The notes below the pieces were generated by a model. That model did not search any database. It was not told where the DNA came from and saw nothing but the letters and a program-made list of their open reading frames with translations. Below are positions 27,226 to 28,909 of a stretch of DNA of 53,908 bases, in pieces (within the stretch, counting starts at the first letter, position 1; the number at the start of each line of letters is the position of its first letter). Made by a program: the position numbers and the translations under genes. The stretch comes from an uncultured Candidatus Saccharibacteria bacterium. GTDB taxonomy: Bacteria; Patescibacteriota; Saccharimonadia; Saccharimonadales; EFPC-124. The DNA lies in the NCBI GenBank assembly GCA_965225085.1, contig CBDDBE010000003.1, forward strand, positions 67,023 through 120,930. The letters are read 5' to 3'.

Positions 27226-28044
27226 ATGTATTCTGGCACTACCATTCGGAACGGCTCTGGCAATTTGCTGGGCGCCCATCAGAAAATCGACCGCATCGCG
27301 CGCGTTGCCCTTGAGGATGCGTTGCCCGATACGTCGTTCCCCTCCATCAAAGATATCCTATATTTCGAAGGCAAAAACGGACCGGATGGCATCAAACGCA
27401 AATCTCCGGCAAAGGACGAGCCGTGGCATTATTTTGACCCCATGGACGATAGCGACACCTCGCTTATCGACATGATCCAGCGTCACCACGAGAACCTGGT
27501 CAAGGCCCTGCGCCGCGGCAGCACCGAAAAGGCGGCATTCGAGGCAGCCTGGATGGCACATGCAATCGTGGATGGGCTAACGCCGGCGCATCACTTCAAG
27601 CTGCATGAAGTCCTTGAGCAAATGCGCGGTGAGGGCCTCGAAACGCGTACGACCATTCGCGACAAGCTCATCATCCATCAGGCAGGGGATACGAACCGCG
27701 AATTCCTATCCAAAAACTGGCGCTACTGGGGCGCAAAGGGCATTATGACCACACATGCGCTGTTCGAGTGGGGCTTTGCCGTAACTATTGCGCCACTACG
27801 CCTGCAAAAGGGCCATCCGTCCGGTAACGACCTGGTCCGCGTACGCAATGAAGGCATCGTGCCGACATTTCGCGAAGCCGCGCGCCATGTTTACAATCTG
27901 AAGATGTACGAACAATTCCAAAAACGTGGCTGGACGCGCACCCTTGCCAAGGCTACTCGGGAGGACCTAGCGCCCCTTATCGTGCGTGTCGTGACGCTGG
28001 CTTGGTACGAGGCCGCATACAAAGCATACGGTGGCAAAAAATGA
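27226..28044 (+). CDS. Zn-dependent phospholipase C / S1-P1 nuclease-like protein
   Basis: N-terminal GAH, PWHYFDP and AWMAHAIVDGLTPAHH resemble PLC/P1 Zn-ligand spacing; no signal peptide. Confidence 0.55.
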   Translation: MYSGTTIRNGSGNLLGAHQKIDRIARVALEDALPDTSFPSIKDILYFEGKNGPDGIKRKSPAKDEPWHYFDPMDDSDTSLIDMIQRHHENLVKALRRGSTEKAAFEAAWMAHAIVDGLTPAHHFKLHEVLEQMRGEGLETRTTIRDKLIIHQAGDTNREFLSKNWRYWGAKGIMTTHALFEWGFAVTIAPLRLQKGHPSGNDLVRVRNEGIVPTFREAARHVYNLKMYEQFQKRGWTRTLAKATREDLAPLIVRVVTLAWYEAAYKAYGGKK

Positions 28045-28583
28045 GAATGCGTATTGTCGCCGGCACACTTGGCGGGCGTTTTTTTGCAGCGCCAGACTCG
28101 ACAGCCACCCATCCTATGGCTGAACGAGTACGCGGCGCACTTTTCAATTCACTCGGGGACATCTCTGACATGAGCGTACTGGATGCCTTTGGCGGTAGCG
28201 GAGCTCTGGCCTTTGAAGCCGTCAGCAGAGGCGCTGCATCCGCACTCATCCTCGAACGTGACAAAAAAGCCGGACGCACCATCGAAGAAAACATCGCTAG
28301 CCTCGACCTCATCGATCAGGTCCGGCTCATCAAAACCAGCGCAAGTAGCTGGAGCGACAATAACGCCGAGCAGCAGTTTGACCTAGTACTCTGCGACCCG
28401 CCATACCACGATATGCAGTTATCCACAGTTTCAAAATTGTTTTCATTAGTCAAACCAAATGGGCTTATGGTATTATCATACCCAGGTAGGGAGTCAGCGC
28501 CGACCGTTAATGGAGTTGTTGTGGTGGACAAGTCTAAAAGTTACGGAGACGCGGCGCTGGCGTACTACCGCAAGGCTGCCTAA
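28041..28583 (+). CDS. rsmD: 16S rRNA m2G966 methyltransferase (RsmD family)
   Basis: MRIVAG..GGR, ERVR.ALFN.L, LDAFGGSGALAFEAVSRGA, DPPY; ATGA overlap with the upstream gene. Confidence 0.92.
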   Translation: MRMRIVAGTLGGRFFAAPDSTATHPMAERVRGALFNSLGDISDMSVLDAFGGSGALAFEAVSRGAASALILERDKKAGRTIEENIASLDLIDQVRLIKTSASSWSDNNAEQQFDLVLCDPPYHDMQLSTVSKLFSLVKPNGLMVLSYPGRESAPTVNGVVVVDKSKSYGDAALAYYRKAA

Positions 28584-28635
28584 AGAGGGCAGTCTTTTAG
28601 GTTACAACGTTATACGGTATAATATTGCATGTGTT

Positions 28636-28720
28636 GGGCGTATGGCGGAATTGGCATACGCGCCGGCTTGCCAAGTCGGTGGTGCTTTTGCACTATGCGG
28701 GTTCGATACCCGCTACGCGC
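28636..28720 (+). tRNA. Atypical type-II (Leu-like) tRNA with GCC anticodon; 3' end incomplete and overlapping tRNA-Leu
   Basis: Acceptor 5' GGGCGTA, D-arm GCGG-AATTGGCAT-ACGC, anticodon arm CCGGC-TTGCCAA-GTCGG, V-arm GGTGC-TTTT-GCACT, T-arm GCGGG-TTCGATA-CCCGC, then TACGC running into the next tRNA; TATAAT at 28618. Confidence 0.7.
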
Positions 28721-28802
28721 GCGAGTGGTGGAATGGTAGACACGCATGCCTTAGGAGCATGTGCCTTCGGGCGTGGAGGTTCAAGTCCTCTCTCGCGCAC
28801 CA
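28719..28802 (+). tRNA. tRNA-Leu(TAG)
   Basis: GCGCGAG/CTCGCGC acceptor, A73 + CCA, CATGC-CTTAGGA-GCATG anticodon arm, long V-arm, GGAGG-TTCAAGT-CCTCT T-arm. Confidence 0.96.
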
Positions 28803-28812
28803 TGGTAGAGAT

Positions 28813-28844
28813 ACAGAAGTGTTCCGCAATTGGAGCACTTTTTG
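28813..28844 (+). terminator. Terminator of the tRNA transcript
   Basis: AAGTGTTCC-gcaatt-GGAGCACTT-TTTGT. Confidence 0.75.
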
Positions 28845-28873: not shown

Positions 28874-28887
28874 GGTTCAAGTCCTCT
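28874..28887 (+). repeat. Exact 14-nt copy of the tRNA-Leu T-arm (att-like scar 1)
   Basis: GGTTCAAGTCCTCT identical to 28778-28791. Confidence 0.7.
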
Positions 28888-28909
28888 TTGGCTCTGATAT
28901 AATTGCCCC

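What the first reader, a model, noticed from the sequence alone, without database searches (positions are those of the whole stretch)
28618..28802. Leu-bodied tRNA with a Gly (GCC) anticodon whose 3' end overlaps the next tRNA
Seen: a full cloverleaf from 28636 with a Leu-type D-arm (GGCGGAATTGGCATACGC), long variable arm in the same 1-nt/2-nt geometry as the adjacent tRNA-Leu, intact U33, but anticodon GCC. The acceptor pairs for 5 bp (GCGTA/TACGC); positions 71-72 are supplied by the first two bases (GC, 28719-28720) of tRNA-Leu(TAG), giving a G2:G71 mismatch, and there is no separate discriminator or CCA. It is first in a transcript with its own TATAAT. Established: bacterial tRNA-Gly are type I (short V-arm); bacterial LeuRS reads A73 and tertiary shape rather than the anticodon; overlapping tRNAs with 3' repair are known from animal mitochondria. 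Inference: (a) a recently fused pseudo-tRNA, (b) a repaired tRNA that would insert Leu at GGC/GGU codons, or (c) a tRNA-like leader, decoy or processing element. All four arms remain paired, including G-U pairs, which argues against long decay.
Basis: partly seen in the sequence, partly recalled or inferred. Interest (0 to 1): 0.78.

Follow-up and report, generated by a model that had tools for sequence, protein, structure and literature searches.

The report
Uncharged leucine-type tRNA look-alike, glycine anticodon
A Saccharibacteria genome carries a tRNA-shaped gene with a leucine-tRNA body and a glycine anticodon, fused head-to-tail to an essential leucine tRNA; it lacks the end that accepts an amino acid and the cell has no enzyme to rebuild it, so it almost certainly cannot mistranslate, but it belongs to a widespread family of such RNAs that I could not find described.

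Summary
Window 28636-28718 folds as a class II, Leu-type cloverleaf with anticodon GCC (ARAGORN; Rfam tRNA 43.9 bits). It stops at tRNA position 70 and abuts base +1 of the single-copy tRNA-Leu(TAG). Independent Logan contigs from two soil runs span both junctions without a mismatch, at single-copy depth.

It cannot be a working tRNA here. It is the only one of 35 tRNA genes without an encoded CCA. The CCA-adding enzyme family is absent from this genome and from 37 of 41 relatives. The "repaired tRNA inserting Leu at GGY" reading is therefore rejected.

About 45 relatives keep the rsmD -> tRNA-Leu(TAG) arrangement and none has this element.

A scan of 185,579 species found about 30 Leu-bodied GCC tRNAs, with more in phages. 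They fall into two groups:
- One group has a full acceptor stem and A73.
- The other group has an invariant TTGCCAA loop and covarying stems, but the top of the acceptor is unpaired. It sits in prophages and defence islands.

The window's element groups with the second group (moderate support).

Best reading: an acquired tRNA look-alike that is transcribed as the leader of tRNA-Leu(TAG), released by RNase P, and translationally dead. Whether it retains a decoy or regulatory role is open.

The parts
28002..28583 (+). rsmD (16S rRNA m2G966 methyltransferase), the conserved upstream neighbour of tRNA-Leu(TAG)
   Evidence: Pfam Cons_hypoth95 at 1e-41. TIGR00095 RsmD at 118 bits. The rsmD -> tRNA-Leu(TAG) arrangement is found across the order.
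28618..28623 (+). TATAAT -10 box. It is the only promoter-like box able to drive the element and tRNA-Leu(TAG).
   Evidence: Read from the sequence. Its distance to the tRNA is the same as for other tRNA genes of the genome, and there is no TAnnnT box in the 60 nt before tRNA-Leu(TAG). It sits at the same offset as the TATACT box in G015 and in the run X7 contig.
28636..28718 (+). The tRNA look-alike: tRNA positions 1-70 with a Leu-type class II body and anticodon GCC (28670-28672). Positions 71-76 are missing.
   Evidence: ARAGORN. Rfam tRNA 43.9 bits. Alignment with the genome's own Leu tRNAs. Logan contigs spanning both junctions.
28668..28674 (+). Anticodon loop TTGCCAA. Together with the closing C:G pair it is identical to the loop of the resident tRNA-Gly(GCC).
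   Evidence: Comparison with C8:5470-5546. The same loop occurs in 11 of 11 group-B and 12 of 19 group-A family members.
28638..28661 (+). Competing hairpin. 28638-44 GCGTATG (acceptor strand plus bases 8-9) is perfectly complementary to 28655-61 CATACGC (D-loop and D-stem).
   Evidence: The predicted minimum-energy fold, -39.9 kcal/mol, uses this hairpin. The cloverleaf is -27.8 kcal/mol.
28719..28802 (+). tRNA-Leu(TAG), single copy, with A73 and an encoded CCA. Its first base directly follows position 70 of the element.
   Evidence: ARAGORN. Rfam 58 bits.
28815..28842 (+). Intrinsic terminator of the two-RNA transcript
   Evidence: Terminator scan. A homologous hairpin follows tRNA-Leu(TAG) in G001 and G015.

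Best explanation
The element is a tRNA-shaped gene that was acquired in this lineage only. It has a leucine-tRNA body and the anticodon loop of tRNA-Gly(GCC). It lies between the only available promoter and base +1 of the single-copy tRNA-Leu(TAG).

Proposed sequence of events:
1. The element is transcribed as the 5' part of the tRNA-Leu precursor.
2. RNase P matures tRNA-Leu by cutting between 28718 and 28719.
3. That cut releases an RNA of about 83 nt that ends at tRNA position 70.

This RNA lacks positions 71-72, the discriminator and the CCA, and the organism has no CCA-adding enzyme. It therefore cannot be aminoacylated and does not insert leucine, or anything else, at GGC/GGU codons.

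Most likely it is a disarmed passenger. It would be a member of a mobile family of Leu-bodied GCC tRNAs whose chargeable end is missing. It is tolerated because it is harmless, and its position upstream of an essential tRNA keeps it transcribed.

Shown: the structure, the junction, the absence from relatives, the lack of CCA and of the CCA enzyme, and the family.
Inferred: co-transcription, the RNase P cut, and the lack of any function.
For: Structure and junction.

Not chargeable:
- It is the only tRNA gene of 35 without CCA.
- PF01743 is absent from this genome and from 37 of 41 relatives, and the controls are positive.

Processing:
- RNase P RNA is present at 234 bits.
- There is no -10-like box inside the element, and tRNA-Leu(TAG) is single copy.

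Lineage-specific:
- No homologue in 60 relatives.
- About 45 relatives keep rsmD -> tRNA-Leu(TAG), and none has a second tRNA in that slot.
- Its 31-letter words occur in only two runs of one soil study.

Redundant: a normal tRNA-Gly(GCC) and all five Leu isoacceptors are present.

Family:
- About 30 Leu-bodied GCC tRNAs in 185,579 species, and 7 in viral contigs.
- A tree built without the anticodon loop and variable arm places the element with family members, not with the Saccharibacteria Leu tRNAs. Support is 84/88.

Predicted misfold: -39.9 against -27.8 kcal/mol.
Against: - All four arms are intact and the anticodon loop is a perfect tRNA-Gly(GCC) loop. That fits either a very recent arrival or selection on the RNA.
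- Eleven family members in seven or more phyla also lack a paired acceptor top, yet keep covarying stems and an invariant loop. A missing acceptor end may therefore be the native, functional state of this subgroup rather than damage.
- There are no expression data and no second strain to test for selection.
- The tree has only 59 columns and moderate support. The element is equally (72-75%) similar to Saccharibacteria Leu(UAA/CAA) tRNAs and to a Gordonia phage tRNA-Leu(CAA).
Confidence: 0.5

Rival explanations
1. A functional tRNA mimic that is never charged. On this reading the element belongs to the acceptor-less subgroup (group B) of the Leu-body/GCC-loop family. It would act through its L-shape and its tRNA-Gly(GCC) anticodon arm. 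Possible roles are a decoy or competitor for a protein or RNA that reads that arm, such as a tRNA-targeting toxin or defence nuclease, a modification enzyme, or GlyRS. Here it would be produced by RNase P processing of the tRNA-Leu(TAG) precursor.
For: Group B (11 sequences from seven or more phyla):
- The TTGCCAA loop is invariant in 11 of 11.
- Anticodon-stem pairs covary with 4-5 pair types per position.
- Acceptor pairs 4-7 are kept, 1:72 is unpaired in 10 of 11 (with A72), and 2:71 is unpaired in 8 of 11.
- Members have their own promoters and terminators and lie in prophages and defence islands, next to an integrase, DUF3800, KwaB of Kiwa, PIN_8, and a Dam methylase with a sigma factor.
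- The gut prophage subfamily shows compensatory changes in the variable arm.

The window's element groups with subgroup B2 in the tree (84/88). It shares the loop and the paired 3-7:66-70 core. It is guaranteed to be transcribed.
Against: - The element lacks the A72 and A-rich tail and the private terminator that typify group B. Its 3' context is simply the next tRNA.
- It is unique to one genome, so there is no sign of selection.
- It is predicted to prefer a non-cloverleaf fold.
- No conserved protein partner exists across group-B loci.
- No Gly-specific T-box was found in this genome. The only two weak T-box hits precede a hisG-like gene and an IleRS-like gene.
- The function of group B itself is unknown.
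Confidence: 0.27
2. A home-grown pseudo-tRNA. On this reading an old duplicate of a Saccharibacteria tRNA-Leu(UAA/CAA) drifted to anticodon GCC. It then lost its 3' end in a deletion that fused it to tRNA-Leu(TAG). No horizontal transfer and no link to the GCC family would be involved.
For: - It is 72-73% identical to Saccharibacteria Leu(UAA/CAA) tRNAs.
- It shares the GGGCG acceptor start and the ..GGNATACGC D-loop variant.
- The missing bases would then be CC-A-CCA, as in those genes.
Against: - Four changes are needed in the 7-nt loop to reach exactly the tRNA-Gly(GCC) loop, and the anticodon stem is entirely different.
- No intermediate or paralogue is found in 60 relatives or in about 45 syntenic loci.
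- The tree places it with GCC-family members rather than with Saccharibacteria Leu tRNAs.
Confidence: 0.15
3. A repaired, chargeable missense tRNA, the first reader's option (b). After RNase P cleavage the missing C71, C72 and A73 and then CCA would be added. I noted that the missing letters spell CCA+CCA and that the 5' end is GG. This would give a Leu-identity tRNA that reads GGC/GGU.
For: - The missing bases would be exactly CCACCA if the ancestor resembled the Saccharibacteria Leu(UAA) acceptor.
- Group-A relatives are complete tRNAs with A73 in 19 of 19.
- Nematode nev-tRNA-Gly is charged with Leu (PMC3333845).
Against: - PF01743 is absent from this genome and from 37 of 41 relatives.
- All other 34 tRNA genes encode CCA.
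- No repair system for bacterial overlapping tRNAs is known (own knowledge).
- The cloverleaf is predicted to be disfavoured.
Confidence: 0.03
4. An assembly or binning artefact that joins a foreign tRNA fragment to tRNA-Leu(TAG).
For: - The flanks (the rsmD 3' end and tRNA-Leu) are shared by many co-occurring Saccharibacteria, which is the kind of place where assemblers make chimeras.
- Run X2 shows no contig over the element.
Against: - Logan contigs from two runs, built by a different assembler, cover 28541/28574-28747 with no differences.
- Their depth equals that of the unique flanks, 31 against 28-31 and 5.6 against 3.8-4.3.
- The organism is at low depth (6-8) in X2.
Confidence: 0.02

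Closest known systems
Nematode-specific V-arm tRNAs (nev-tRNA-Gly(CCC), nev-tRNA-Ile(UAU); Hamashima et al. 2012, PMC3333845)
   Same: A class II, tRNA-Leu-derived body carrying a glycine anticodon. The identity conflict is between body and anticodon.
   Different: - nev-tRNAs are complete, expressed, leucylated in vitro, and decode GGG as Leu in vitro.
- They are eukaryotic and read GGG.
- The window's element is bacterial, has anticodon GCC, and lacks positions 71-76, so it cannot be charged.
Allo-tRNAs and associated irregular tRNAs of soil bacteria (Mukai et al. 2017, PMC5389517)
   Same: - Long-variable-arm bacterial tRNAs with non-cognate anticodons.
- Often on mobile elements or next to toxin-antitoxin genes.
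- Many copies appear to be inactive or not used in translation.
   Different: Allo-tRNAs have 8/4 or 9/3 acceptor/T geometry and Ser identity. This element has the ordinary 7/5 geometry with a Leu-type D-arm. That paper's text does not mention tRNA-Leu, LeuRS or GCC.
Overlapping mitochondrial tRNA genes with 3'-end repair (animal mitochondria; own knowledge)
   Same: The upstream tRNA gene lacks its own 3' acceptor bases because the next tRNA starts there.
   Different: Mitochondria have the repair and CCA-adding activities. This genome lacks the CCA-adding enzyme family and encodes CCA in all its other tRNA genes.
Canonical bacterial tRNA-Leu (class II)
   Same: The D-arm matches the genome's own tRNA-Leu(TAA) at 19 of 21 bases. 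It has a long variable arm with 1 unpaired base on the 5' side and 2 on the 3' side, and a normal T-arm.
   Different: The anticodon is GCC. There is no A73 and no CCA, and only 5 acceptor pairs are its own.
tRNA-Other of Bacillus cereus (a pseudo-tRNA acting as a small RNA; cited in PMC5389517)
   Same: A tRNA-like RNA whose role, if it has one, lies outside normal decoding.
   Different: tRNA-Other is a complete, chargeable molecule with its own gene. No sequence relationship was tested.

Membership tests
Canonical bacterial tRNA-Leu | Leu-type D-arm (3-bp stem, GG placement) and a long variable arm | tested here: met
   Alignment with the five Leu tRNAs of this genome. Rfam tRNA alignment.
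Canonical bacterial tRNA-Leu | Discriminator A73 and a 3' CCA end, encoded or added | tested here: not met
   The element ends at position 70 and the next bases are GCGCGAG of tRNA-Leu(TAG). It is the only one of 35 tRNA genes without CCA. There is no PF01743 enzyme.
Canonical bacterial tRNA-Leu | A leucine anticodon (NAG or YAA) | tested here: not met
   The anticodon is GCC at 28670-72.
Canonical bacterial tRNA-Gly(GCC) | Class I body with a 4-5-nt variable loop | tested here: not met
   The variable arm is 17 nt. The resident tRNA-Gly(GCC) is 77 nt and class I.
Canonical bacterial tRNA-Gly(GCC) | Anticodon loop UUGCCAA with C35 and C36 | tested here: met
   The loop and its closing pair are identical to those of the resident tRNA-Gly(GCC).
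Mischarging class II tRNAs (nev-tRNA-like; group A of the bacterial Leu-body/GCC family) | Class II Leu-type body with a non-Leu, non-Ser anticodon | tested here: met
Mischarging class II tRNAs (nev-tRNA-like; group A of the bacterial Leu-body/GCC family) | A complete 7-bp acceptor stem and A73, so that LeuRS can charge it | tested here: not met
   Group A has 7 of 7 pairs and A73 in 19 of 19 sequences. The window's element has 5 pairs of its own, a G2.G71 mismatch and G at position 73.
Mischarging class II tRNAs (nev-tRNA-like; group A of the bacterial Leu-body/GCC family) | Aminoacylation with Leu and use on the ribosome | not testable with these tools
   This needs charging assays, tRNA sequencing or proteomics.
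Acceptor-less Leu-body/GCC-loop tRNA look-alikes (group B, defined here) | Invariant TTGCCAA loop on a Leu-type body with acceptor pairs 4-7 kept | tested here: met
   The tree places the element with subgroup B2 at 84/88 support.
Acceptor-less Leu-body/GCC-loop tRNA look-alikes (group B, defined here) | Unpaired 1:72 and 2:71 with A72 and an A-rich 3' tail | tested here: not met
   The element has G2.G71 unpaired, but G1:C72 can pair, and its tail is GCGCGAG from the next tRNA.
Acceptor-less Leu-body/GCC-loop tRNA look-alikes (group B, defined here) | A stand-alone gene with its own terminator, in a prophage or defence island | tested here: inconclusive
   It has no terminator of its own. It does sit at a tRNA-Leu integration hot spot, with an att-like repeat at 28874-92 and orphan genes downstream.
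Overlapping tRNA genes with 3' repair (mitochondrial type) | A repair or CCA-adding activity that completes the upstream tRNA | tested here: not met
   PF01743 is absent from this genome and from 37 of 41 relatives. The controls are positive in 10 of 14 genomes.
Allo-tRNA (Mukai 2017) | 8/4 or 9/3 acceptor/T-stem geometry | tested here: not met
   Standard 7/5 geometry in both ARAGORN and Rfam alignments.

The most novel reading that the evidence does not exclude
The window's element and the eleven 'group B' sequences may define an undescribed family of small RNAs.
- They have a leucine-tRNA scaffold that presents a perfect tRNA-Gly(GCC) anticodon arm.
- They deliberately lack a chargeable acceptor end.
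- They are spread by phages, prophages and defence islands across at least seven phyla, and now into the ultra-small CPR bacteria.
- They would act as decoys or competitors for something that reads the tRNA-Gly(GCC) anticodon arm, for example tRNA-targeting toxins or defence nucleases.

The complete 'group A' forms, with A73, would be genuine Gly-to-Leu missense tRNAs of the same lineage.
Probability: 0.2. Interest if true: 0.8.

Novelty: new variant of a known kind. Interest (0 to 1): 0.55.

Why it matters
1. Annotation. ARAGORN, and any anticodon-based caller, will report this as a second tRNA-Gly(GCC). It is neither a Gly tRNA nor chargeable. Tiny CPR genomes are judged by their tRNA sets, so this matters.

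2. A natural experiment. A tRNA that would be a Gly-to-Leu missense tRNA if it were complete is kept in a form that cannot be charged. The host lost the CCA-adding enzyme, so a gene without an encoded CCA is automatically inert. Reliance on encoded CCA may act as a firewall against foreign tRNAs.

3. The family. The work shows independently that Leu-bodied GCC tRNAs recur across bacteria and phages, and splits them into two groups:
- a complete, A73-bearing group that is probably mischarging;
- an acceptor-less group that keeps a perfect anticodon arm under covariation.
I found neither group described in the searchable literature. Both are directly testable in E. coli.

Tried and rejected
- CCA+CCA repair. 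The missing bases would spell CCACCA and the 5' end is GG. Rejected because PF01743 is absent and CCA is encoded in all 34 other tRNA genes.
- Homologues in relatives. BLAST in 60 relatives found only D-arm matches to ordinary Leu tRNAs. None of the ~45 syntenic rsmD loci found among more than 300 relatives searched has a second tRNA.
- Exact and near-exact copies elsewhere. A 23-mer scan of JGI metagenomes found nothing. The Logan word index found the element only in runs X1 and X3 of one study.
- The run X7 contig with 187 other letters in the slot, which might have held an intact ancestor. Its ends show a homologous promoter region and a non-tRNA sequence before tRNA-Leu, so it holds no copy of the element.
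- An antisense or 'masking' partner, as earlier notes reported for similar tRNAs. There is no inverted repeat to the element within 1 kb. Only the internal 7-bp complementarity between the acceptor strand and the D-arm was found.
- A T-box decoy role. There are only two weak T-box hits in the genome, before a hisG-like gene and an IleRS-like gene, and none for Gly.
- A conserved protein partner for group B. All-against-all BLAST of neighbouring proteins found none.
- Another Rfam family. Only the tRNA model matches.
- RNA-seq evidence. RNA runs hold at most a quarter of the words, which is the conserved tRNA-Leu part, and none holds the element's own words.
- Origin. Phage and plasmid collections gave only ordinary tRNA-Leu(CAA) genes of Gordonia phages at 75% identity, and no plasmid hit.
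- Anticodon census. GCC forms are therefore a small minority.
Full report
WHAT IS THERE

The sequence at 28636-28718 is a complete class II cloverleaf up to tRNA position 70. ARAGORN reports it as tRNA-Gly(gcc) at 28636-28722, overlapping tRNA-Leu(tag) at 28719-28802. The Rfam tRNA model scores it 43.9 bits over its full length when the stretch is scanned alone. The window-wide and 451-nt scans did not list it.

The parts are:
- 5' acceptor strand GGGCGTA;
- a Leu-type D-arm, matching the genome's own tRNA-Leu(TAA) at 19 of 21 bases;
- anticodon arm CCGGC/TTGCCAA/GTCGG;
- a 17-nt variable arm;
- T-arm GCGGG/TTCGATA/CCCGC;
- 3' acceptor strand TACGC.

The next base, 28719, is base 1 of tRNA-Leu(TAG). 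That gene is a normal tRNA (58 bits) with A73 and an encoded CCA. Only pairs 3-7:66-70 belong to the element. Borrowing G28719 and C28720 gives a G2.G71 mismatch and a G1:C72 pair, and neither a discriminator A nor a CCA follows.

The junction is real. Logan contigs of two soil-metagenome runs cover 28574-28747 and 28541-28747 with no differences. Their depths (31 and 5.6) equal those of the unique flanks. Both runs come from one study, probably the source of the genome. This excludes an assembler artefact but is not an independent population.

THE GENOME AROUND IT

The window lies in a 1.08-Mb, 98%-complete genome. Earlier notes of this scan identify it as Saccharibacteria.

- It has 35 tRNA genes. 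These include an ordinary 77-nt tRNA-Gly(GCC), tRNA-Gly(TCC) and (CCC), and all five Leu isoacceptors. The element is therefore redundant for decoding.
- Thirty-four of the 35 genes encode CCA. The element is the only exception.
- The CCA-adding / poly(A)-polymerase family PF01743 gives no match in this genome. It matches in only 4 of 41 genomes of the order, while 10 of 14 control genomes score.
- RNase P RNA is present at 234 bits.

WHY IT CANNOT BE A WORKING tRNA HERE

Aminoacylation and ribosomal use need the 3' CCA. Leucylation in bacteria also needs A73; that is established knowledge (see PMC2377443, listed). The element has neither, no CCA lies downstream, and the lineage has dispensed with the enzyme that could add one.

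I had considered an attractive repair route. The missing letters, judged from Saccharibacteria Leu(UAA) acceptors (GGGCG.../...CGCCC-A-CCA), would be CCA+CCA, and the 5' end is GG. The absence of the enzyme removes this route.

TRANSCRIPTION AND PROCESSING (INFERRED)

No TAnnnT box lies in the 60 nt before tRNA-Leu(TAG), because those bases are the element itself. Most other tRNA genes of the genome have such a box 10-25 nt upstream. tRNA-Leu(TAG) is single copy and is the only tRNA matched to CUA. It must therefore be transcribed from the TATAAT box at 28618-23, or by read-through from rsmD, together with the element. One terminator follows at 28815-42.

RNase P cleavage at 28718/28719 matures tRNA-Leu. 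It necessarily leaves the element ending at position 70.

The -10 box sits 15-20 nt past 28603. A TATACT box sits at exactly that offset in relative G015 and in a related contig of run X7. It is probably the ancestral tRNA-Leu promoter, with the element inserted into the former leader.

EVOLUTIONARY STATUS

- The arrangement rsmD -> short spacer -> tRNA-Leu(TAG) is conserved across the order.
- The spacer is 48 nt in G015. In the same-genus genome G001 it is 659 nt and contains an ORF. In the run X7 contig it is 187 nt.
- None of about 45 such loci contains a second tRNA.
- BLAST finds no homologue of the element in 60 relatives.
- Its words occur only in the two runs above.

The element is therefore a recent, lineage-specific arrival in a variable slot bounded by two very conserved segments. 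These are the last 160 nt of rsmD, which is 96-100% identical to G015 and G001, and the tRNA itself. An att-like copy of the tRNA-Leu 3' part lies at 28874-92. This marks the locus as a landing site for mobile DNA.

THE WIDER FAMILY

I scanned one genome for each of 185,579 species for a Leu-type D-arm followed by YTGCCR. This gave 60 loci. ARAGORN calls an 81-98-nt 'tRNA-Gly(gcc)' in about 30 of them. Most of the other loci are chance matches in coding sequence; four are Leu-type tRNAs with a hairpin inserted near the anticodon loop. Viral contigs add 7 more, and gut metagenomes add 8 copies of one prophage subfamily.

The sequences fall into two groups.

Group A, 19 sequences (Gemmatimonadota, Acidobacteriota, Planctomycetota, an alphaproteobacterium, phages):
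- all seven acceptor pairs are formed;
- A73 is present in 19 of 19;
- these look like chargeable Leu-identity tRNAs that read GGY.

Group B, 11 sequences (Clostridia and Lachnospiraceae prophages, Desulfitobacteriaceae, Dehalococcoidia, Chitinophagaceae, Phycisphaerales, Arcobacteraceae, Verrucomicrobiae):
- acceptor pairs 4-7 and the anticodon and T stems are kept, with abundant covariation;
- the TTGCCAA loop is invariant in 11 of 11;
- 1:72 is unpaired in 10 of 11 (always A72) and 2:71 in 8 of 11;
- the 3' side runs into an A-rich tail and, in most members, a visible intrinsic-terminator hairpin;
- neighbours include an integrase, DUF3800, KwaB of Kiwa, a PIN_8 protein, and a prophage Dam methylase with a sigma factor;
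- no protein is shared between loci, and Rfam sees only weak tRNA matches of 32-43 bits.

A maximum-likelihood tree built without the anticodon loop and variable arm places the window's element with subgroup B2, the GAGC... acceptors. Support is 84/88. It does not group with the 27 distinct Saccharibacteria Leu tRNA sequences in the tree. The alignment has only 59 columns, so this is suggestive and not firm. Pairwise identity is the same, 72-75%, to Saccharibacteria Leu(UAA/CAA), to a Gordonia phage tRNA-Leu(CAA), and to the best GCC members.

Earlier notes of this scan had flagged Leu-type GCC tRNAs on mobile elements in other genomes. My scan confirms their recurrence independently and adds the split into groups A and B.

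INTERPRETATION

The safest statement is that the element is a translationally dead tRNA look-alike, made as the leader of tRNA-Leu(TAG).

I put 0.5 on it being a passenger without a function of its own. On that reading it is a member of the Leu-body/GCC family whose chargeable end is absent. It is harmless for that reason, and it is kept transcribed by its position. The predicted alternative hairpin fits an RNA no longer held to the tRNA fold. In it, 28638-44 pairs perfectly with 28655-61, giving -39.9 against -27.8 kcal/mol for the cloverleaf. Such energy predictions ignore tertiary contacts and base modifications.

I put 0.27 on it being a functional mimic like group B. Group B shows that an intact tRNA-Gly(GCC) anticodon arm on a Leu scaffold without an acceptor end is maintained by selection in many lineages. 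Against this, the window's copy lacks the A72 and A-rich tail and a terminator of its own.

A purely local origin by duplication and drift gets 0.15. Repair followed by mistranslation gets 0.03. An artefact gets 0.02.

COMPARISON WITH WHAT IS KNOWN

- The nearest published parallel is the nematode nev-tRNA-Gly, a Leu-derived class II tRNA with a Gly anticodon that is charged with Leu (PMC3333845). It is complete and eukaryotic.
- Allo-tRNAs (PMC5389517) share the soil and mobile-element setting and the non-cognate anticodons. They have a different geometry and Ser identity.
- Mitochondrial overlapping tRNAs share the missing 3' end, but they rely on a repair activity that this organism lacks.
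- In three full-text searches I found no description of bacterial Leu-bodied GCC tRNAs or of the acceptor-less subgroup. The library is incomplete, so this is absence of evidence only.

VERDICT

- The element itself is a modest curiosity.
- The family it points to, and the idea that dependence on encoded CCA protects CPR bacteria from foreign missense tRNAs, are the interesting parts.

Noticed in passing
window 28440-28603: The last ~160 nt of rsmD are 96-100% identical to two relatives of different genera (G015, G001), while the rest of the gene is about 40-80% identical. In the soil runs, Logan depth there is 200-750 against about 30 for the flanks. This is an ultra-conserved or recombining segment next to the variable slot before tRNA-Leu(TAG).
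   Followed up: partly
window 28874-28892: A 19-nt direct repeat (17 of 19) of the T-arm and 3' part of tRNA-Leu(TAG) (28778-28796), lying just after the terminator and before orphan genes. It is an att-like scar of integration at this tRNA. An earlier first-stage note lists further copies downstream.
   Followed up: partly
genome G000, all contigs: The CCA-adding enzyme family PF01743 is absent from this genome and from 37 of 41 genomes of the order. All 34 ordinary tRNA genes encode CCA.
   Followed up: yes
genome G000: C1:166985-167059, C7:25919-25992, C8:5470-5546: All three tRNA-Gly genes have A73 rather than the U73 usual in bacteria. This suggests an archaeal/eukaryal-type GlyRS recognition mode and blurs the Leu-versus-Gly identity argument for A73-bearing Leu-bodied GCC tRNAs.
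   Followed up: no
L056, L057, L096, L099 (genome contigs): Leu-type tRNAs (Methylopila, Thermodesulfobacteriota, Bryobacterales, Acidobacteria) with a 25-45-nt hairpin-forming insertion in or next to the anticodon loop and normal ACCA ends. They may be small introns or extended anticodon arms.
   Followed up: no
L103 2755-3027 (viral contig): A phage tRNA cluster holds an 84-nt class II tRNA-Asn(GTT) next to an 89-nt Leu-bodied tRNA(GCC) with A73 and CCA.
   Followed up: no
L047 1-1000 (Desulfitobacteriaceae MAG): A tRNA-Sec (59 bits) lies about 430 nt upstream of a group-B tRNA look-alike. A DUF3800 gene starts about 50 nt after that look-alike's terminator.
   Followed up: no
L076 (Phycisphaerales MAG), about 220-2000 nt downstream of the tRNA look-alike: A group-B tRNA look-alike sits directly upstream of a membrane protein gene and a KwaB gene, which together look like a Kiwa anti-phage system.
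   Followed up: partly
L049, L101, L102, L107, L109-L117: A conserved small-RNA gene of about 150 nt in Lachnospiraceae prophages and human-gut contigs. It consists of a TATAAT promoter, a leader containing ATGTACAT that can pair with the trailer ATGTA, a Leu-body/GCC-loop tRNA module, and a terminator. Copies differ by compensatory changes in the variable arm and the terminator.
   Followed up: partly
L170, L171, L185 (viral contigs): Leu-bodied tRNAs with stop-codon-reading anticodons TTA and CTA in phage contigs. These are likely suppressor tRNAs.
   Followed up: no
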